Positions 3,328 to 55,233 of a stretch of 64,000 bases of DNA are shown piece after piece. This DNA comes from an uncultured Bacteroides sp. (GTDB taxonomy: Bacteria; Bacteroidota; Bacteroidia; Bacteroidales; Muribaculaceae): positions 3,609 to 67,608 of the forward strand of contig CAYWWE010000002.1 in the NCBI GenBank assembly GCA_964461785.1. Reading direction: 5' to 3'. A model generated the notes under the pieces. It did no database searches. It was not told the origin of the DNA and saw only the letters and a program-made list of their open reading frames with translations. Each line of letters begins with the position of its first letter. Positions within the stretch are counted from its first letter, which is position 1. The position numbers and the translations under genes were made by a program.

Positions 3328-4272
3328 TTACTTGAAAAGGTACTGCGAAGAAATGGACTGGTTGTTGTGTACGCGCGAGATGGTGTCGGCAAACATGCGG
3401 GCCACTGAGAGAACAGTCACTTTCGGGCACTCCTTCTTGTAAGGGATCGAATTGGTGAAGATCATCTCGATCATGTCGGAGTTGTTGATGCGTTCGGTGG
3501 CGGGATCACTCATGATGGCGTGAGAGGCGAGTGCGCGGACCGACTTGGCGCCTTTGCTCATGAGGAGGTCGGCAGCCTTGGAGATGGTGCCTGCGGTGTC
3601 TACCATGTCATCGATGAGGATCACGTTCTTATCCTTGACGTCGCCGATTACGGTCATGTCAGCAACCACATTGGCGCGGGCACGCTGCTTGTGGCAGAGC
3701 ACGAGGGGGCAGTCAAGATATTTGGCATAGGAGTTGGCGCGCTTGGCTCCGCCTACGTCGGGTGTGGCGATGCAGAGGTCGGGAAGATTGAGCGACTTGA
3801 TATAGGGGATGAAGACCGACGAGGCGTAGAGATGATCAACAGGCACATCAAAGAAGCCCTGAATCTGATCGGCGTGGAGATCCATAGTGATGATGCGGTC
3901 TACACCGGCAGCGGTGAGGAGATTGGCAACGAGCTTGGCACCTATCGAAACACGGGGCTTGTCCTTGCGATCCTGACGTGCCCAGCCGAAGTAGGGCATG
4001 ACAGCTATGACGGAGTGGGCCGATGCGCGCTTGGCAGCGTCGATCATAAGGAGAAGCTCCATGAGATTGTCGCAGTTGGGGAATGTCGACTGGACAAGAT
4101 ATACTTCGCAGCCACGGATGGGCTCCTCGAAGGACACCTCAAATTCGCCGTCGGCGAAGTGGGTGATGTTCATTTTGCCGAGTTCGATACCGAGCTCGCG
4201 GCAAATCTCTTCGGCCATGTATTGTGACTTGCTGCCGGAGAAAATCTTGATAGGATGGATGATGGATTTCAT
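3328..4272 (-). CDS. prs: Ribose-phosphate pyrophosphokinase
   Basis: FADGE, PYFGWARQDRK, DLHADQIQGFFD, LIDDMVDTAGT. Confidence 0.98.
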   Translation of the reverse strand: MKSIIHPIKIFSGSKSQYMAEEICRELGIELGKMNITHFADGEFEVSFEEPIRGCEVYLVQSTFPNCDNLMELLLMIDAAKRASAHSVIAVMPYFGWARQDRKDKPRVSIGAKLVANLLTAAGVDRIITMDLHADQIQGFFDVPVDHLYASSVFIPYIKSLNLPDLCIATPDVGGAKRANSYAKYLDCPLVLCHKQRARANVVADMTVIGDVKDKNVILIDDMVDTAGTISKAADLLMSKGAKSVRALASHAIMSDPATERINNSDMIEMIFTNSIPYKKECPKVTVLSVARMFADTISRVHNNQSISSQYLFK

Positions 4273-4311
4273 ATCTCGGGAATGAATGAAAAATCAGGTT
4301 TGCAAGGTATA

Positions 4312-6033
4312 TTATCTGGACCCTTCGTTGGGAAATCGCCAGACAACAGCGTTGTATGGCCGGAGGAAAGTGTGGAAAGGGGTGTCGGGTGAGAACACTT
4401 TCTTTTCTTTCTCGCCGGTGATCAGTTCGGTGGCCAGGCAAGGAGTGTCGTCGGCCTTTATGCCAAGCACTTCAAATGCGTGCGCAGGGATATTGATGCG
4501 CAGGTCGGCCGACTCCGAGCCGAAATTGACGGCAACGAGGAGGGTCTCTGTAGACGAGGAGCGCAGGAAGGCATACTGCCGGTGAGGGTCAAACGATGGA
4601 TTTTCGTAGTTGACATACATAAGATCGAAGAAGCGGCCTTCCGTGATGGCTTTCTGCGATGCTGCTATCTGGAGTATGTTGATATACTGACCGCGGAGCC
4701 ATTGCTCGCGAGGGGTAAGATGCTCGGACGAGGGGCATCCGGGGCCATCTCCGGTGAGCCAGCGGCGTATCGTGCCGACGCTCCAGTAGTCGAAAATCGT
4801 TGTTCGCCCGTCGCGGCCCGAATATCCTTCCTCGTCGGTGCCTGACTCGCCTAATTCCTGTCCCATATATATCATCACGGGACCAGTGTTGATCATTGAC
4901 GAAACAACGAGAGAGGGAATGATCTTGGCAGGATCTCCGGCATACTGGGGTGAGGCAAAACGCTGCTCATCATGATTTTCAAGGAAGTTGAGCATGTGAT
5001 TGCCCAATCCCTCGGTCTGCTGCCAGCAAGATGTGAGTGCTGCTGCCGACACTGAGCCGGTCTGGATGGCACGCAGGGTATCATAGAGCCCCGACTTATC
5101 ATAGAGGTAGTCGAATCCGCCCACCGTTATGAACGGGCGGTAGAGATGCAGGTCATAGAGCTCGGCAATGAATATTATGCCGGGATATTCCGCCTTGATC
5201 TTGCCGATAGCCCAATGCCAGAACTCGAGGGGCACCATGTGGACCATATCGCAGCGGAATCCGTCGACACCCTTCGATGCCCAGAAACGCAGGATATGAT
5301 ACATCTTCTCCCATGTGGAGGGTATGGGGTCGAAATGGCGTGAGCCGTTGGCCGGGTCAACACCATAGTTGAGTTTGACGGTGTCATACCAGTCGTTGCG
5401 CGACGGGAATGCGTTGTAGCAATCATTGCCGGAGGCTTTGGCCGGAAATTCGACATAGGCTTTCTTGCCTTCGCCGAGATCTACATCATACGGGGCAAAG
5501 AGCTGCCGGGTGATGTAGTAGAAATTATTGGCGGGCGAGAAAAACATATCGGTGTTGTCGCCGGATCCGAGATCGCCGGGAGCGTCGGCAGGAGCCGAAT
5601 CCGAGGCATAGCGCCGGGCAACATGGTTGGGCACGAAATCGATTATGACTTTAAGGTCGGCCTGATGGGTGCGGGCAACCAGCTGCTCGAACTCCGACAT
5701 ACGCCCGGCCGGGTCGACTGCCAGATCGGGATCTATATCATAATAGTCACTTATGGCGTAGGGAGAGCCTGCCTGACCCTTGACGACGTATGGATTGTCA
5801 GGAGTGATGCCGAAGGCAGAGTAGTCGGGGCAATGGGCGTGTTCGATGACTCCGGTATACCAGACGTGACTGACCGAGAGCTCCTTGATTCCCTTAAGGA
5901 TCTCGGGAGTGATGTCGGCGAGTTTTCCGCAGCCGTTTTCCTCGATTGTTCCCGATGGTATGCATTCCTCGTTGTAGTTGGTAAACAGTCGGGGGATCAG
6001 TTGGTAGATGACTGGCTTGCGGGAATGATTCAT
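4312..6033 (-). CDS. GH13 alpha-amylase family glycosidase
   Basis: DFVPNH, GFRCDM (nucleophile), IAELY (acid/base), NHDE. Confidence 0.9.
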   Translation of the reverse strand: MNHSRKPVIYQLIPRLFTNYNEECIPSGTIEENGCGKLADITPEILKGIKELSVSHVWYTGVIEHAHCPDYSAFGITPDNPYVVKGQAGSPYAISDYYDIDPDLAVDPAGRMSEFEQLVARTHQADLKVIIDFVPNHVARRYASDSAPADAPGDLGSGDNTDMFFSPANNFYYITRQLFAPYDVDLGEGKKAYVEFPAKASGNDCYNAFPSRNDWYDTVKLNYGVDPANGSRHFDPIPSTWEKMYHILRFWASKGVDGFRCDMVHMVPLEFWHWAIGKIKAEYPGIIFIAELYDLHLYRPFITVGGFDYLYDKSGLYDTLRAIQTGSVSAAALTSCWQQTEGLGNHMLNFLENHDEQRFASPQYAGDPAKIIPSLVVSSMINTGPVMIYMGQELGESGTDEEGYSGRDGRTTIFDYWSVGTIRRWLTGDGPGCPSSEHLTPREQWLRGQYINILQIAASQKAITEGRFFDLMYVNYENPSFDPHRQYAFLRSSSTETLLVAVNFGSESADLRINIPAHAFEVLGIKADDTPCLATELITGEKEKKVFSPDTPFHTFLRPYNAVVWRFPNEGSR

Positions 6034-6066
6034 AGTCGGTGTCAGGAATTATAAACGGGTTAAGGT

Positions 6067-6852
6067 TTACAGTTTCAGATTGGAGGAGCGGAGGGCTTTA
6101 ACTGCGGCGTCATAGCCGGCAGAGAATACATGTTCGGTCTGGGAGAGGTCAAAGACCTTATAATCGGCAATATCGTCAAAGGATATGACCATGTCGCAAA
6201 GCGCCATATCGGTCACGGCATTGCTCTTGGCAACGATGTTATACGATTGGATCGCGGTGTCGATGATGTTGTTGCGCGACTTGTCACGCGCCCGCATGGG
6301 TGAGCAATTGATTCCTATCAGGTACTTGCACTCCCTGCGGATGGCCCATGCCGGAAGATTGTGAGTAAGGCCGCCGTCGACATATTTGGAGCCGTTCATT
6401 TCGGCCGGCTGGAAAACGATAGGGATTGAGCAGGATGCTGCCACGATCTCAGGCACTGATCCCTTGCGAAATGACTCGGGCAGACCGGTATCGAAGTTGG
6501 TCACTCCCACCACCGTGGGGATCGGCATATCTTCGAGATTTCTCACGGGAATGGTTTCGGAGAGGAATTTCCTGAACCTGTCGAGACTGAAAAATCCTCC
6601 GTGAGGGACAGTAAATTCGGTGAGATCATTGAACTTGGCATTATCAAATGATTCAAGGATCTCCCGGGGATGCAAGCCCGCCGAATACATGGCGGCAACA
6701 ACTGAGCCGGCAGATACTCCGGCAATGATGTCGGGGCGGATTCCGGCCTGCTCAAGAGCCATAAGAGCTCCTGCGTGGGCAAATCCTCGCGCACCGCCCC
6801 CTGATAGGGCGATACCGATCCTGTGGGTAGATTTGGTAAACAGGCTTAGCAT
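6067..6852 (-). CDS. Patatin-like phospholipase
   Basis: GGGARG, GVSAG, DGG motifs; start moved to ATG 6852 downstream of TAATTTTG at 6879-6886. Confidence 0.92.
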   Translation of the reverse strand: MLSLFTKSTHRIGIALSGGGARGFAHAGALMALEQAGIRPDIIAGVSAGSVVAAMYSAGLHPREILESFDNAKFNDLTEFTVPHGGFFSLDRFRKFLSETIPVRNLEDMPIPTVVGVTNFDTGLPESFRKGSVPEIVAASCSIPIVFQPAEMNGSKYVDGGLTHNLPAWAIRRECKYLIGINCSPMRARDKSRNNIIDTAIQSYNIVAKSNAVTDMALCDMVISFDDIADYKVFDLSQTEHVFSAGYDAAVKALRSSNLKL

Positions 6853-51030: not shown

Positions 51031-51999
51031 TCACACTGTGACGACTATTTTGCCTATCTCTCCACGCTGCTCTGCCAGTTCGTGGGCGGCGGCTATATCT
51101 TCAAGCCTGAATGTGCGGGCAATGATGGGATGTATCCGTGCGCGGTCGATCAGATCCATCATGTCGGTGATTTCTTTCTGTGTCGGGGAATTGCTGTAGA
51201 ATCCGGTGAGATATACCCCGGAAGGAATTTCCTTGATCGGATCAAAATCTTTCATGCCGAATATGCCTCCGAGCAGGCCGGTGTGACATACGATTCCGTG
51301 CAACGATGTAAGCCGCAGCGACTCAAGCAGGGTAGCGGCACCGATCAGTTCGAGCACTTTAGTTGCACCATAGGGGTATTTATCGAGAAATTGCTGTCTT
51401 AGATCGGGCCCTTCGATCATGGCGTCGTCTGCTCCATATTGTCTCAGAAGACTGCACTTTTGTGTGCTGCGGGTGGTGGAAACGACTGTGGCTCCGATTG
51501 CCTTGGCAAGCTGCAGGGCTGCCAACCCCACCGTGGAGGTGCCACCACGGATAAGCAGAAGATCGCCTGACTTCAGCTGCAACGATCCTACGAGCGAGCC
51601 GTAGGCCGTGTAAAAGGTCTCCGGAATAGCGGCAAGTTCCTGCCAGTCAAGACTACTGTTGACAACAAACAGATGGCTTGCCGGCAAAAGGGCGTATTCC
51701 GAGTAGCTTCCGTCGAAACTGCGGCCCATTCCACCCATCAGGGCAATCACGCGATCGCCCTTCCTGAATCGGGTGTCGGAGGGATCTTCAACCACACCTA
51801 CACATTCGATGCCGGGTATGATCGGTTTCCGGATATATGGCCGGGCTATCTCAAACTGACGGAGAAGTATCTCGGAATGATTGATGCCGAAGGCTTTGAC
51901 TTTGACAAGCACCCATCCTGGGCGCACCGTAGGGATGGCTCTTTCGGTTAATTTCATTTCTCCGGCCTTGCAAGGCTCGGTGAGTACAACAGCTTTCAT
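51031..51999 (-). CDS. Zn-independent MDR-family (quinone) oxidoreductase
   Basis: VLVKVKAFGINHSE, PGIECVG, DGSYSEY, RGGTSTVG, GKIVV; no catalytic Zn Cys/His set; ATG overlaps the rSAM stop. Confidence 0.88.
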   Translation of the reverse strand: MKAVVLTEPCKAGEMKLTERAIPTVRPGWVLVKVKAFGINHSEILLRQFEIARPYIRKPIIPGIECVGVVEDPSDTRFRKGDRVIALMGGMGRSFDGSYSEYALLPASHLFVVNSSLDWQELAAIPETFYTAYGSLVGSLQLKSGDLLLIRGGTSTVGLAALQLAKAIGATVVSTTRSTQKCSLLRQYGADDAMIEGPDLRQQFLDKYPYGATKVLELIGAATLLESLRLTSLHGIVCHTGLLGGIFGMKDFDPIKEIPSGVYLTGFYSNSPTQKEITDMMDLIDRARIHPIIARTFRLEDIAAAHELAEQRGEIGKIVVTV

Positions 52000-53015
52000 A
52001 CTTCCTTCCAGCATTGGGGGTCAGGTGCATAAAACGAGCGGTGGTAGCCGTATGCCACAGCCGGGCATCCTCGGCAGAAGCGGAGCAATTCGCATCGCGA
52101 GCATTTCTCAAATTTCTCATGCTGACGATAGGCCTCCATTTCTTTTCCGGTCCAGAGATCATGAATTGGAGTGTGGAAAAGATTGCCTACTACGCTATCA
52201 AAGCGGCGGCAGGCCATGACACTGCCGTCGGGCTGAATGGTGAAATGGCAGTCGCCGCAGTGACATCCGTCGTAGATAGCCTCAGGATCGCTGTTGGCCG
52301 GAATCTGAAACAGCCCTTTCTCATAAAGATACAGGGTCCACAGATGATCCTTGAGGTTGAAGACGGTCGACGAATCCTTATGCTGCTCAAACTTTTTCCA
52401 GATGCGGTCGAGGAAGTCGCGGTATTCAAGCGGCGAGATATGAGTAGATTTTTCTTCGGAGGTGGGGCAATAACGTCCGAAGGCAAACAGGTCGACCCCT
52501 TTGTCAACTACCAGGTCAATAATGTCGGGGATCTCGCTGATATTTGTACCGGAGACGGTTGTCATTACCGCAACCCGTATACCGGCTTTTTTCAGGACGT
52601 CAATCTTGTCGATGGTAGTGTCGAACGATCCGGGCTTTCGAATGGAGTCGTGGGTGTCTCTCATTCCGTCGAGCGACAACTGATATTTGGCGCATCCCAT
52701 GTCTTTCAGGCGGATGCACACCTCATGGGTGAGATGAAAAGGATTGCCAAGGATCGTGAATGGAATATCACGCTCCTTAAGGAGTGAGAGAATCTCCCAA
52801 AAGTGTCGGTGAAGGATGGGATCGCCACCTGTTATATAAAAATATGGTAGGCGGTGTATCTTCCGGCACATCTCCTCACATTGAGCGACAACCTCCTTCG
52901 CCCTTTCGAGTGATATCTCGATCAGGTGTGGATGTCCTTCCGAGAAAATGTAGCAGTGTTCGCAGCGCTGATCGCAGCTATCGGTTATGTGCCACTGGAA
53001 AGCAAAATATTCCAT
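51996..53015 (-). CDS. Radical SAM/SPASM peptide maturase (ACGX-system type)
   Basis: QWHITDSCDQRCEHCY (CxxxCxxC), ITGGDP, SLDG; SPASM Cys array GCHCGDC, MAC, CSRCELLRFCRGC, DPQC. Confidence 0.92.
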   Translation of the reverse strand: MEYFAFQWHITDSCDQRCEHCYIFSEGHPHLIEISLERAKEVVAQCEEMCRKIHRLPYFYITGGDPILHRHFWEILSLLKERDIPFTILGNPFHLTHEVCIRLKDMGCAKYQLSLDGMRDTHDSIRKPGSFDTTIDKIDVLKKAGIRVAVMTTVSGTNISEIPDIIDLVVDKGVDLFAFGRYCPTSEEKSTHISPLEYRDFLDRIWKKFEQHKDSSTVFNLKDHLWTLYLYEKGLFQIPANSDPEAIYDGCHCGDCHFTIQPDGSVMACRRFDSVVGNLFHTPIHDLWTGKEMEAYRQHEKFEKCSRCELLRFCRGCPAVAYGYHRSFYAPDPQCWKEV

Positions 53016-53141
53016 ATCATAGATTTATGTTCCGTATTTAATGGTTTCTCGCCATGGGGCGAGCCGTGATAAAACGACAGACTCCGACAGAAAGGCGGGT
53101 TGCTCAGCTGCCGGAGTTGTCGGGGAGGGTACTGGACGGAG

Positions 53142-53315
53142 TTATTTTTCTCCTGCACCGCAAGCCGAGCCACATGCTGCGGGCTTGGGTTCGGGTTTTT
53201 CCTCGCCGGCTCCGCAGGCAGAGCCGCATGCGCCTGAGGGTGTTTCGGTTGCGGCCTGAGCACAGAGATATGCCTGTGCGGTGTGCTTTACGGCACTATT
53301 GGCAATACGCTTCAT
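53142..53315 (-). CDS. ACGX-repeat RiPP precursor peptide, 57 aa (not in ORF track)
   Basis: Hand translation MKRIANSAVKHTAQAYLCAQAATETPSGACGSACGAGEEKPEPKPAACGSACGAGEK*; directly upstream of and co-oriented with the rSAM/SPASM gene. Confidence 0.88.
   Translation of the reverse strand: MKRIANSAVKHTAQAYLCAQAATETPSGACGSACGAGEEKPEPKPAACGSACGAGEK
53148..53231 (-). repeat. Two 30-nt direct repeats encoding ACGSACGAGE (53202-53231 and 53148-53177)
   Basis: gcatgcggctctgcctgcggagccggcgag vs gcatgtggctcggcttgcggtgcaggagaa; 7 differences, all at third codon positions. Confidence 0.95.
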
Positions 53316-53360: not shown

Positions 53361-53368
53361 CAAAATTA
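53361..53368 (-). promoter_or_regulatory. -7 promoter element of peptide-rSAM-oxidoreductase operon
   Basis: TAATTTTG on minus strand, 45 nt upstream of the peptide ATG. Confidence 0.65.
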
Positions 53369-53518: not shown

Positions 53519-53526
53519 TAACTTTG
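53519..53526 (+). promoter_or_regulatory. -7 promoter element of hxlR-like gene
   Basis: TAACTTTG, 19 nt before ATG 53546. Confidence 0.7.
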
Positions 53527-53545: not shown

Positions 53546-53917
53546 ATGAGAAGAAAAGAGCAGCTTAATTCCATCATAGAGATCTGTCCGGTCAGAAATG
53601 TTGTGGCCCGTTTCGGCAATAAATGGGCTTTGCTTGTCATACTGGTCCTGAGCGAGAATGACCCGATCCGGTTCAATGATCTGGGACGTAAGATACCTGA
53701 CATTTCATCGCGGGTGCTATCGTCGACACTGAGGACTCTTGAAGCCGACGGGCTTGTCAGCCGCGAATACTTTCAGGAGGTTCCTCCGAGAGTGGAATAT
53801 TCGCTTACCGACACAGGGCGATCACTGGTGCCGATCATTGTGCAACTCACTGAGTGGGCTCAAAAAAACATGAAGACCATTATCGAGCATCGACGTCTCA
53901 GCACTCCTGAAAGCTGA
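53546..53917 (+). CDS. HxlR/DUF24 winged-helix transcriptional regulator
   Basis: CPV...GNKW, RFNDL, ISSRVLSSTLRTLEADGLV, VPPRVEYSLT. Confidence 0.95.
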   Translation: MRRKEQLNSIIEICPVRNVVARFGNKWALLVILVLSENDPIRFNDLGRKIPDISSRVLSSTLRTLEADGLVSREYFQEVPPRVEYSLTDTGRSLVPIIVQLTEWAQKNMKTIIEHRRLSTPES

Positions 53918-53988: not shown

Positions 53989-55233
53989 ATGGCATCCGAT
54001 TCATCTGTAAAGCCGGCACAGACCACTACCGCCGACTTATCTTCTGCTCCCAAACATTATGGCCTCTTTGTGGTGTTCATTGCCATAATAGGCGCATTCT
54101 CCTCGCTCGTCAACGATATGTACCTCCCGACAATTCCTTCGATGATGAAGGAGTTTCACACTACGCCTTCGATGACCCAGATGGGCATATCGATGGCTAT
54201 GATCGGAATGGGTCTCGGCTCGGTATTATGGGGCTCGGCAAGCGACCACTACGGGCGCAAACCGATTTTGATCGGGTCGCTGATAATATTTGTGATAGCA
54301 ACTGCGCTCTCACTGTTTTCGCGCAATATAACTTTCTTCATAATCTGCCGTCTGTTTCAGGGGCTTGGAGCCGGTGGAGCAATGGTGCTATCCACCTCTA
54401 TCCCGGCCGATGTCTATATGGGGCGTCAACTTGCCAAACTCATGGCTATTGTAGGTGCCATCAACGGTGTGGCACCGGCTCTCGGGCCTGTTGTCGGTGG
54501 TTTCATGGCCGATTGGGTCGGATGGCATGGAATATTTGTTGTTCTCCTCGTGGTAGGGGTTGTAATGACTTTCTGGACCACACATTATACTGAGACGCTC
54601 CCTCCGGCGCGCCGTCTTAAGGCACAGAGTCTCAAGGGCTACGTCAAAGCCTACCGATCGCTGTTTGCCAACGGTCGCTTCATGCTCTATGTCACGATCA
54701 AAGCTGTTGCGATTGGTCTGCTGTATGCCTATATATCGTCTGCGCCCTTTATCATACAGACACACTATGGATTCAGCGCCATGACTTTCGGACTGATTTT
54801 CGGAGGAAACGCACTTGCCATGAGCATAGGTTCATCGCTCGCACTGAAATTTAAGGTGATGAAGCAGGCTATGGTCGTCGGTTGTTTCGGTATGTTTGTG
54901 TTCGCCGTAGCAGAAGCGTTCGTGATGTGGCATGAAACACCGTTTATCTATTATGAACTATGCGCCATACCGATGCTTCTGTTCTCAGGCATGATCTTCT
55001 CAAGTGCCAACACACTTTCGATGGAGGTAGGACGTGATGAGGCCGGTACAGCTTCGGCTATCCTCAGTGTGGTGAAGTATGCTTTCGCTGCCGTTGTGTC
55101 GCCTCTCGTAGGTCTCGGAAATATCTTCCACTCCACGGCAATAGCATACGTTGCCGTGACCTCGGTAGCGGTAGTGCTCGCATGGCGCGCCATACGCCTC
55201 GCTCCTTTAGCCGATATGGAGAGAACTAAATAA
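53989..55233 (+). CDS. Bcr/CflA family MFS efflux transporter
   Basis: DMYLPTIP, SDHYGRKP, RLFQGLGAG, PALGPVVGG; about 12 TM. Confidence 0.92.
   Translation: MASDSSVKPAQTTTADLSSAPKHYGLFVVFIAIIGAFSSLVNDMYLPTIPSMMKEFHTTPSMTQMGISMAMIGMGLGSVLWGSASDHYGRKPILIGSLIIFVIATALSLFSRNITFFIICRLFQGLGAGGAMVLSTSIPADVYMGRQLAKLMAIVGAINGVAPALGPVVGGFMADWVGWHGIFVVLLVVGVVMTFWTTHYTETLPPARRLKAQSLKGYVKAYRSLFANGRFMLYVTIKAVAIGLLYAYISSAPFIIQTHYGFSAMTFGLIFGGNALAMSIGSSLALKFKVMKQAMVVGCFGMFVFAVAEAFVMWHETPFIYYELCAIPMLLFSGMIFSSANTLSMEVGRDEAGTASAILSVVKYAFAAVVSPLVGLGNIFHSTAIAYVAVTSVAVVLAWRAIRLAPLADMERTK

What the first reader, a model, noticed from the sequence alone, without database searches (positions are those of the whole stretch)
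51031..52014. Oxidoreductase translationally coupled to the maturase
Seen: the rSAM TGA and the oxidoreductase ATG overlap as ATGA (51996-51999). The enzyme lacks catalytic Zn ligands (zeta-crystallin/QOR-like). Inference, two alternatives: (a) a tailoring reductase or electron supplier for the rSAM [4Fe-4S] cycle; (b) the original HxlR target, with the peptide-rSAM cassette inserted upstream and captured into its regulon.
Basis: partly seen in the sequence, partly recalled or inferred. Interest (0 to 1): 0.62.

Follow-up and report, generated by a model that had tools for sequence, protein, structure and literature searches.

The report
Dedicated reductase of the ACGX peptide cassette
This gene encodes an ordinary-looking zinc-free NADPH reductase, but its particular lineage is found almost only fused into operons that make an uncharacterised cysteine-repeat ("ACGX") peptide, so it is probably a fixed working part of that stress-controlled system and not a chance neighbour.

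Summary
The radical SAM gene (51996-53015, minus strand) ends in TGA inside ATGA (51996-51999), and the conserved start of the reductase is the ATG at 51999. The ATG at 52014 only gives the longest ORF. The protein is a zinc-free quinone-oxidoreductase-like MDR enzyme.

Of 85 ACGX loci, 56 carry this reductase just downstream of the maturase on the same strand, 28 of them with the same 4-nt overlap. These include Firmicutes and a spirochaete. Another 22 carry a nitroreductase in that position, and only 3 carry no reductase. In searches starting from the reductase, the orthologue was found only beside ACGX maturases. No hxlR-reductase pair without the peptide and maturase was found. One genome that lost the maturase carries a pseudogenised reductase.

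Alternative (b), recent capture, is therefore not supported. Alternative (a) is supported as far as membership of the cluster goes. A role as electron donor to the maturase is chemically unlikely, and a tailoring role is unproven.

Best reading (about 0.45): an NAD(P)H-dependent reductase dedicated to the maturase's peptide product, switched on by the one-cysteine HxlR sensor. Main rival (about 0.35): a co-regulated small-molecule electrophile or quinone reductase.

The parts
51031..51999 (-). QOR-like MDR reductase gene (322 aa, stop TGA 51031-51033). The conserved start is the ATG at 51999.
   Evidence: Pfam ADH_N, ADH_zinc_N and ADH_zinc_N_2. TIGR02824 scores 182.9 bits, below its cut-off of 296.8. 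Orthologue alignment A2. AF2 model pLDDT 93.8 with QOR-type fold matches.
51996..51999 (-). ATGA: the maturase stop TGA overlaps the reductase start ATG.
   Evidence: Sequence. The same -4 spacing occurs in 28 of 56 QOR-bearing loci and.
52012..52014 (-). Alternative upstream in-frame ATG (longest ORF, 327 aa) inside the maturase's conserved QCW codons. It is probably not the main start.
   Evidence: One gene caller used the equivalent ATG in L123.
51996..53015 (-). Radical SAM/SPASM maturase of the ACGX system (339 aa).
   Evidence: TIGR04340 at 573.8 bits against a cut-off of 400. 62-85% identical across phyla.
53016..53141 (-). Peptide-maturase spacer that folds into two hairpins. The first is followed by GUUUUAU, so it may be an attenuator or partial terminator.
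   Evidence: strand folding: -40.3 kcal/mol, z = -3.27. Its function is inferred.
53142..53315 (-). ACGX-repeat precursor peptide (57 aa, two ACGSACGAGE cores).
   Evidence: TIGR04341 at 29.8 bits against a cut-off of 28. Orthologous peptides. Pfam Target_ACGX on relatives.
53361..53368 (-). Bacteroidota -7 promoter motif TAATTTTG, about 46 nt upstream of the peptide ATG. This is the only such motif on the minus strand between 50000 and 53400.
   Evidence: No match lies inside the maturase gene.
53546..53917 (+). Divergent HxlR/DUF24-type regulator with a single Cys (Cys14). A -7 motif TAACTTTG lies at 53519-53526.
   Evidence: PF01638 at 101.3 bits. Single Cys at position 14. Motif. An HxlR gene lies within 4.6 kb in 43 of 48 fully flanked loci.
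53989..55233 (+). Bcr/CflA-type MFS efflux gene downstream of hxlR. It is a local neighbour, not a conserved part of the cassette.
   Evidence: TIGR00710 at 232.5 bits. No orthologue in the other 84 loci; the only hit is a 30%-identical MFS gene in L062.

Best explanation
The gene encodes a zinc-free, NADPH-type reductase of the medium-chain dehydrogenase/reductase superfamily (quinone-oxidoreductase-like). It is a fixed member of a four-gene cassette: hxlR, ACGX peptide, radical SAM/SPASM maturase and reductase. It is transcribed from the promoter upstream of the peptide gene and translated by re-initiation at the ATGA overlap, which ties its output to that of the maturase. It most likely transfers a hydride from NAD(P)H to an electrophilic C=C, C=N or quinone-like group specific to this system. 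That group would be either on the maturase-modified cysteine-repeat peptide (a tailoring step) or on its oxidised form (a recycling step). The whole operon would be switched on by the one-cysteine HxlR thiol sensor under electrophile or oxidant stress. Shown here: the fold and cofactor type, the overlap, conservation of the gene in ACGX clusters, restriction of its lineage to those clusters, and decay together with the maturase. Inferred: co-transcription, the substrate, and the inducing signal.
For: Cluster membership: QOR lies downstream of the maturase on the same strand in 56 of 85 ACGX loci and in Caldicellulosiruptoraceae, Erysipelotrichaceae, Treponema and an unclassified metagenome contig.

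Restriction of the lineage: in the genus, orthologues occur only in ACGX genomes, plus one decayed cassette. In 401 Bacteroidales, hits of at least 50% identity occur only beside the maturase. Of 23 ACGX genomes without an adjacent QOR, 22 have none anywhere. Four of 4 QOR-anchored look-ups land in hxlR|peptide|rSAM|QOR.

Tight linkage to the maturase rather than to hxlR: QOR is always on the 3' side of the rSAM gene and co-directional, and it overlaps by 4 nt in 28 loci. HxlR, by contrast, is divergent upstream (49 loci), co-directional downstream (12), co-directional upstream (6) or absent.

Co-evolution: rSAM and QOR distance matrices correlate with Mantel r = 0.87, and 0 of 2000 permutations reached that value.

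Co-decay: G022 keeps only a 63-aa maturase remnant, and its QOR carries an in-frame TAG.

Substitution: a nitroreductase lineage that is also absent from non-ACGX Bacteroidales (best hit 40% identity in 401 genomes) occupies the same slot in 22 loci, three times with the same -4 overlap.

No promoter consensus lies inside the maturase gene.

Precedent for MDR-type reductases acting on modified ribosomal peptides: LanJA (PMC11519912).
Against: The reductase is not essential for the system: 22 loci use a nitroreductase and 3 have no reductase. One Erysipelotrichaceae cluster has both a nitroreductase and QOR, so the two are not simple equivalents. The peptide core (ACGSACGAG[DE]) does not differ between QOR-type and nitroreductase-type clusters, so nothing ties the type of reductase to the peptide. 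QOR and nitroreductase are exactly the enzyme types that DUF24/HxlR regulators control for small-molecule electrophile detoxification (PMC3351151). The chemistry of the ACGX maturase is unknown, so no reducible intermediate can be named. Many of the loci share ancestry, which inflates the counts.
Confidence: 0.45

Rival explanations
1. The reductase is a co-regulated detoxification enzyme. It acts on exogenous or metabolic small-molecule electrophiles (quinones, enones, diamide-like oxidants), as in the QorR-QorA, YodB-YodC/AzoR1 and HypR-HypO modules. It shares only the HxlR regulon and the operon with the peptide and maturase, and does not touch the peptide.
For: HxlR/DUF24 regulators with the conserved N-terminal Cys classically control a quinone oxidoreductase or a nitroreductase (PMC3351151). 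The window's HxlR has a single Cys at position 14. QOR and nitroreductase alternate in the same slot, and other typical stress genes recur in these clusters: cupin, PNPOx-ferredoxin, Sir2-like plus macro domain, tautomerase, ABM. The peptide core is the same whichever reductase is present. Three clusters lack any reductase. The fold is closest to generic QORs.
Against: A general detoxifier would be expected outside the cassette as well, but the orthologous lineage is confined to it and decays with the maturase. The invariant adjacency is to the maturase, not to hxlR. Loci without a nearby hxlR still keep the reductase next to the maturase (L042, L043, L062).
Confidence: 0.35
2. The reductase supplies electrons from NADPH to the maturase's [4Fe-4S] clusters.
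For: Translational coupling to the maturase. Radical SAM enzymes need a reductant for every turnover (established knowledge). Some clusters add a PNPOx-like FMN domain fused to a 2x[4Fe-4S] ferredoxin directly after the maturase.
Against: MDR/QOR enzymes have no flavin, iron-sulfur or other one-electron cofactor and transfer hydride (established knowledge of the family). No such cofactor motif is present: only four scattered Cys and a standard QOR fold. Where a plausible electron carrier (PNPOx-Fer4) exists, it occurs in addition to QOR or the nitroreductase, not in their place (8 QOR+PNPOx-Fer4 and 3 nitroreductase+PNPOx-Fer4 loci).
Confidence: 0.05
3. Recent local capture: hxlR and the reductase were an older divergent pair in this lineage, and the peptide-maturase pair was inserted between them.
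For: The HxlR-reductase pairing is a known module type (PMC3351151). A 64%-identical HxlR paralogue in a genus relative sits divergent from a cupin gene with no ACGX genes, which shows that such small modules exist nearby.
Against: No hxlR-QOR pair without the peptide and maturase was found in 37 genomes of the genus or in 401 of the order. The same four-gene order occurs in Firmicutes with the same 4-nt overlap. The flanking genes differ between loci while the four genes stay together. The nearest stand-alone paralogue family (about 43% identity, aerobic Bacteroidota) has neither hxlR nor rSAM nearby in 3 of 3 contexts.
Confidence: 0.04

Closest known systems
Zinc-free quinone oxidoreductases of the MDR superfamily (zeta-crystallin, E. 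coli QOR, PIG3, Rhizobium etli QOR 4dup)
   Same: Same two-domain fold (TM about 0.85). About 27-35% identity to 4dup and 1yb5. No catalytic or structural Zn ligands, and a GGTSxxG nucleotide-binding loop.
   Different: Scores below the cut-off of the nearest curated subfamily (TIGR02824: 182.9 against 296.8). It has its own invariant signature (ALMGGMGRSFxGSY, PGIEC, GIVCxTG). Its lineage is confined to ACGX operons and translationally coupled to a radical SAM gene.
DUF24/HxlR-controlled reductase modules: QorR-QorA (C. glutamicum), YodB-YodC/AzoR1 and HypR-HypO (B. subtilis)
   Same: An HxlR-family regulator with the conserved N-terminal Cys (Cys14) sits next to an operon that ends in a QOR or, in other loci, a nitroreductase.
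   Different: A ribosomal cysteine-repeat peptide gene and its radical SAM maturase lie between the regulator and the reductase. The reductase is overlapped with the maturase. The hosts are anaerobes of several phyla. Induction by electrophiles has not been tested.
LanJA dehydroalanine reductases of lanthipeptide clusters (LtnJA, NpnJA, RodJA)
   Same: MDR-type NADPH-dependent enzymes encoded in peptide-modification clusters that reduce a C=C installed by the main modifying enzyme (PMC11519912).
   Different: LanJA enzymes are described as zinc-dependent and act after LanM dehydratases. Here the Zn ligands are absent, there is no lanthipeptide synthetase, transporter or protease, and the upstream enzyme is a radical SAM/SPASM protein of unknown chemistry.
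Mycofactocin-type logic: a radical SAM/SPASM-matured peptide that serves dedicated dehydrogenases (from my own knowledge of Haft 2011, BMC Genomics)
   Same: A small peptide, a SPASM maturase and lineage-restricted nicotinamide-dependent oxidoreductases occur together. No export or leader-protease genes are present.
   Different: No MftB, MftD, MftE or MftF equivalents. TIGR03962 scores 90.9 against a cut-off of 265. The peptide is a Cys-Gly repeat rather than a C-terminal Val-Tyr. This is an analogy of logic only.

Membership tests
MDR superfamily, zinc-free QOR / zeta-crystallin-like branch | GroES-like N-terminal domain plus Rossmann-type C-terminal domain | tested here: met
   PF08240 at 56.5 bits, PF00107 at 55 bits, PF13602 at 47.8 bits. 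AF2 model pLDDT 93.8. Foldseek top hits are QORs at TM 0.82-0.89.
MDR superfamily, zinc-free QOR / zeta-crystallin-like branch | Absence of the catalytic Zn ligands (Cys, His, Cys) and of the four-Cys structural Zn loop | tested here: met
   GINHSE (Asn40) and PGIECVG (Ile64) stand at the ligand motifs. The protein has only four Cys in all: 10, 66, 182 and 238. The motif positions come from general knowledge of Zn-ADHs.
MDR superfamily, zinc-free QOR / zeta-crystallin-like branch | NADPH-dependent quinone (or enone) reduction | not testable with these tools
   Needs an enzyme assay.
PIG3-type putative NAD(P)H quinone oxidoreductases (TIGR02824) | Score at or above the curated cut-off | tested here: not met
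   182.9 bits against a cut-off of 296.8.
ACGX system (TIGR04340 maturase + TIGR04341 peptide) | Maturase and peptide above their cut-offs and adjacent | tested here: met
   573.8 against 400 and 29.8 against 28 bits. The genes are 126 nt apart on the same strand.
ACGX system (TIGR04340 maturase + TIGR04341 peptide) | The reductase as a recurrent component. This is not part of the curated definition; it is proposed here. | tested here: met
   QOR in 56 of 85 loci, nitroreductase in 22 of 85, no reductase in 3 of 85. The QOR lineage is absent outside ACGX clusters in the samples searched.
LanJA (lanthipeptide dehydroalanine reductases) | Zinc- and NADPH-dependent MDR enzyme encoded with a lanthipeptide synthetase | tested here: not met
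   Zn ligands are absent. No LanM/LanB/LanKC-type gene lies among the neighbours. The definition is taken from PMC11519912.
DUF24/HxlR-regulated reductase module (QorR-QorA type) | HxlR-family regulator with a conserved N-terminal redox Cys next to the reductase operon | tested here: met
   PF01638 at 101.3 bits. Single Cys14. HxlR is present in 43 of 48 fully flanked loci. The family description is in PMC3351151.
DUF24/HxlR-regulated reductase module (QorR-QorA type) | Derepression or activation by diamide, quinones or hypochlorite | not testable with these tools
Mycofactocin system | MftC-type maturase with MftB, MftD, MftE and MftF partners | tested here: not met
   TIGR03962 at 90.9 against 265 bits. 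No such partner genes occur in the window or in the 85 loci.

The most novel reading that the evidence does not exclude
The ACGX peptide is not an exported antibiotic. It is matured inside anaerobes into a peptide-derived redox-active molecule, either a thiol- or heterocycle-based antioxidant or electrophile trap, or a small cofactor. The cluster-restricted QOR and nitroreductase lineages (with the optional PNPOx-ferredoxin) would then be its dedicated NAD(P)H-linked recycling enzymes, all under a one-cysteine HxlR stress switch. This would follow mycofactocin-like logic in gut and rumen Bacteroidales, Firmicutes and spirochaetes.
Probability: 0.15. Interest if true: 0.8.

Novelty: new variant of a known kind. 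Interest (0 to 1): 0.45.

Why it matters
The ACGX system is catalogued (NCBIfam TIGR04340 and TIGR04341, Pfam Target_ACGX), but I found no paper on it in the library. This work shows that its real unit is four genes: regulator, peptide, maturase and a dedicated NAD(P)H reductase. It also shows that the reductase slot can be filled by a QOR or by a nitroreductase. That gives an experimenter a concrete reconstitution set and a hypothesis. The product is probably an intracellular, stress-induced redox peptide and not a bacteriocin. The cassette is common in Muribaculaceae of the mouse gut and in rumen Bacteroidales, organisms with no known low-molecular-weight thiol system, so a peptide-based redox buffer there would be of physiological interest. 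If the reductase proves to be a plain co-regulated quinone reductase, the finding is ordinary.

Tried and rejected
1. Literature. Searches for 'ACGX' with 'radical SAM', TIGR04340, TIGR04341 and 'ACGX-repeat' returned nothing relevant.

The sigma-70 scan is of little value for Bacteroidota.

3. Peptide motif against reductase type. The cores are the same in QOR-type and nitroreductase-type clusters, so this gave no discrimination.

4. QOR tree with non-ACGX paralogues. G106 and G109 group with a Neobacillus ACGX-genome QOR (support 99/99) on a long branch. The only outgroup is very distant and the root is unreliable. I therefore do not claim that the ACGX-linked QORs are monophyletic.

5. Strict mutual exclusion of QOR and nitroreductase. 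This held in the 85 loci but was broken by an Erysipelotrichaceae cluster that has both.

6. The MFS gene as part of the cassette. Rejected, because it is present only in this genome.

7. An apparent HxlR orthologue without ACGX in G017. This is a contig-end artefact: the contig starts inside the ACGX peptide gene.

8. Sampling limit. The 80 fetched loci are the best of at least 590 and are biased towards Bacteroidales. Four extra look-ups in other phyla only partly offset this.
Full report
**Anatomy**

On the minus strand the window carries three genes in a row:
- a 57-aa ACGX-repeat peptide gene (53142-53315; TIGR04341 29.8 bits, cut-off 28);
- a radical SAM/SPASM gene (51996-53015; TIGR04340 573.8 bits, cut-off 400);
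- a 322-aa MDR-family reductase gene (51031-51999).

A divergent HxlR-family regulator gene (53546-53917) faces the peptide gene and is followed by a Bcr/CflA MFS gene (53989-55233). The sequence GAA GTA TGA / ATG AAA confirms the ATGA overlap at 51996-51999. The finding's upper coordinate, 52014, is an in-frame ATG created by the maturase's conserved QCW codons. The N-termini of all 20 aligned orthologues start M(K/R)A(V/I)(V/I), and that includes genes lying 2-34 nt beyond the maturase stop, so 51999 is the conserved start.

**The enzyme**

Pfam finds ADH_N, ADH_zinc_N and ADH_zinc_N_2. The best curated model is the PIG3-type QOR family, but the score is below its cut-off (182.9 against 296.8). 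The closest solved relatives are zinc-free QORs: 4dup, and human zeta-crystallin 1yb5. A model of pLDDT 93.8 superposes on QOR, VAT-1, PIG3, Rv1454c and 2-haloacrylate reductase at TM about 0.85.

The zinc-ligand motifs read GINHSE (Asn40) and PGIECVG (Ile64). The protein has only four scattered cysteines. The nucleotide loop is GGTSTVG followed by VVSTTRS, which suggests NADPH. That last point is an inference from family knowledge.

**Is the reductase part of the ACGX system? Sampling anchored on the maturase**

A scan of species-representative genomes returned 80 loci with an ACGX maturase, the best of at least 590. Adding loci from whole-genome searches and the window gave 85. The tallies are as follows.
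- A QOR orthologue (51-75% identity) lies downstream of the maturase on the same strand in 56 loci.
- A nitroreductase-family gene (PF00881) takes that position in 22 loci.
- A fusion of a PNPOx-like FMN domain with a 2x[4Fe-4S] ferredoxin follows the maturase in 12 loci: 8 with QOR, 3 with the nitroreductase, 1 alone.
- Of the six loci first scored as having no reductase, one has QOR 4.5 kb upstream. One has a 39.7%-identical nitroreductase 2 nt after the maturase. One is cut by a contig end, with QOR on another contig end. That leaves three loci with none.

The distance from the maturase stop to the QOR start is -4 nt in 28 loci and -1 to +34 nt in 13. It is about 630-655 nt where the PNPOx-ferredoxin gene intervenes.

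Outside Bacteroidota:
- a Caldicellulosiruptoraceae genome has hxlR | peptide | rSAM | QOR with the same 4-nt overlap;
- Erysipelotrichaceae have peptide | rSAM | nitroreductase | DUF5131 | QOR | hxlR;
- a Treponema has hxlR | peptide | rSAM | Sir2-like | macro | QOR;
- an unclassified metagenome contig has hxlR | peptide | rSAM | QOR | tautomerase | ABM.

**Sampling anchored on the reductase**

In the genus (37 genomes) the maturase is found in three genomes. A fourth, G017, has the peptide gene and hxlR cut off by a contig end. QOR orthologues occur only in the three maturase genomes and in G022. In G022 only a 63-aa remnant of the maturase survives, a CDF transporter gene sits in between, and the QOR carries an in-frame TAG.

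In an even sample of 401 genomes of the order, hits of at least 50% identity lie only beside a maturase (G000, G113). Two hits of 43-44% identity belong to a different branch. Of 23 ACGX-positive genomes with no adjacent QOR, 22 have none anywhere. Four QOR homologues picked from the protein database because they lie on long contigs all sit in hxlR | Target_ACGX | rSAM | QOR. The nitroreductase lineage is likewise missing from the 401-genome sample, where the best hit is 40% identical.

The distance matrices of rSAM and QOR correlate with Mantel r = 0.87, and 0 of 2000 permutations reached that value. Shared species history contributes to this figure.

No hxlR-QOR pair without the peptide and maturase was found in the genus or the order. 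HxlR paralogues of 62-66% identity exist in relatives; the one examined is divergent from a cupin gene, not from a QOR.

The 43%-identical QOR branch is a large, slowly evolving, stand-alone family of aerobic Bacteroidota, including Algoriphagus, Ekhidna, Mangrovivirga and Flavilitoribacter. In three of three contexts it has neither hxlR nor rSAM nearby.

The genes flanking the cassette differ from locus to locus while the four genes stay together. The position of hxlR varies: divergent upstream in 49 loci, co-directional downstream in 12, co-directional upstream in 6, absent in a few. The reductase, in contrast, always follows the maturase. A recent local capture is therefore not supported.

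It remains true that DUF24/HxlR regulators classically control a QOR (QorR-QorA) or nitroreductases (YodB-YodC, HypR-HypO) (PMC3351151). The window's regulator also has the single conserved Cys14. The module may therefore descend, deep in time, from such a pair.

**Transcription**

The Bacteroidota -7 motif TAnnTTTG occurs once on the minus strand near the cluster, at 53361-53368, about 46 nt upstream of the peptide ATG. It occurs once on the plus strand just upstream of hxlR, at 53519-53526. None lies inside the maturase gene. The sigma-70-type scan finds nothing in the 3' part of the maturase gene and no minus-strand terminator between the genes. The peptide-maturase spacer folds into two hairpins (z = -3.27), the first followed by a short U run. 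This may be an attenuator that sets the ratio of peptide to enzymes.

**Mechanism**

MDR/QOR enzymes transfer hydride from NAD(P)H and have no one-electron cofactor. Feeding a low-potential [4Fe-4S] cluster is therefore unlikely. The PNPOx-ferredoxin fusion seen in some clusters is a better candidate for that job, and it occurs alongside QOR, not in its place. The remaining options are a reductase acting on the maturase's product or a co-regulated small-molecule electrophile reductase.

For the first option:
- the QOR and nitroreductase lineages are both restricted to ACGX cassettes;
- the linkage to the maturase is tight and often overlapping;
- the reductase decays together with the maturase;
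- LanJA reductases set a precedent (PMC11519912).

For the second option:
- the enzyme types match those of classical HxlR regulons;
- other stress-type genes recur in these clusters;
- the peptide core is the same whichever reductase is present;
- some clusters have no reductase.

I put the first at about 0.45 and the second at about 0.35.

The maturase's second-best family match is SbtM, the thio(seleno)oxazole maturase (TIGR04082, 189 bits). This hints at oxidative chemistry on cysteine but does not identify a reducible intermediate. None of the clusters carries a transporter or a leader protease, and the peptides have no signal sequence. Both points argue for an intracellular product.

**Verdict**

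Its substrate is unknown and it is not universal.

The enzyme itself is ordinary. The architecture appears undescribed: an HxlR-controlled operon in which a ribosomal cysteine-repeat peptide, its radical SAM maturase and a dedicated QOR or nitroreductase travel together across phyla. The evidence is comparative only. The loci are biased towards Bacteroidales, and many of them share ancestry.

Noticed in passing
window 53016-53141 (-): The spacer between the peptide and maturase genes folds into two stable hairpins (-40.3 kcal/mol, z = -3.27). The first is followed by GUUUUAU. This may be an attenuator or partial terminator that sets the peptide:enzyme ratio.
   Followed up: partly
L042, L030-L036, L039-L048 and others (22 loci), directly after the maturase: A nitroreductase-family gene (about 192 aa, PF00881) replaces QOR in the same slot, sometimes with the same 4-nt overlap. 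Its lineage is also absent from 401 non-ACGX Bacteroidales genomes (best hit 40% identity).
   Followed up: yes
L050, L060, L069-L072, L075-L077, L099 and others: A 204-aa fusion of a PNPOx-like FMN-binding domain with a 2x[4Fe-4S] ferredoxin sits directly after the ACGX maturase in 12 loci. It is a plausible electron carrier for the maturase.
   Followed up: partly
L051, L052, L062, L073, L081, L116: A Sir2-like protein of about 290 aa (no Pfam hit) together with a macro-domain protein, and often DUF5131, recurs inside ACGX clusters of non-Muribaculaceae lineages. This recalls SirTM/macrodomain stress operons; the comparison is from memory and untested.
   Followed up: no
L090 (G022:C61) 4114-6381: A decayed ACGX cassette in a genus relative. 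Only 63 C-terminal residues of the maturase remain, a His-rich CDF metal transporter gene lies where the junction should be, the QOR has an in-frame TAG, and a cupin gene follows.
   Followed up: partly
L009, L018, L029, L034 (between peptide and maturase); L004, L011, L121, L123 (after QOR): A small cupin (about 125 aa, PF07883) is another recurrent accessory of Muribaculaceae ACGX cassettes. A 64%-identical HxlR paralogue in G024 sits divergent from a cupin with no ACGX genes.
   Followed up: partly
window 53989-55233 (+): A Bcr/CflA-type MFS efflux gene lies 71 nt downstream of hxlR on the same strand. It is probably co-transcribed here but is not found in the other 84 ACGX loci.
   Followed up: partly
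L016, L020, L021, L023: Contigs whose ACGX cassettes are 80-83% identical to Muribaculaceae ones are labelled 'uncultured Staphylococcus sp.' in their records. These are probably mislabelled MAGs.
   Followed up: no
L066 (Methanosarcinaceae archaeon MAG) and L098 (G391): ACGX-type maturases (58-65% identical) with no reductase and no hxlR within 5-7 kb. L066 also has no ACGX peptide that I could detect. L098 has a different SCGSSCG-type peptide.
   Followed up: no
whole window: The Bacteroidota -7 promoter motif TAnnTTTG occurs 40 times against 18.8 expected (0 of 100 shuffles reach 40). This is consistent with a Bacteroidales genome.
   Followed up: no
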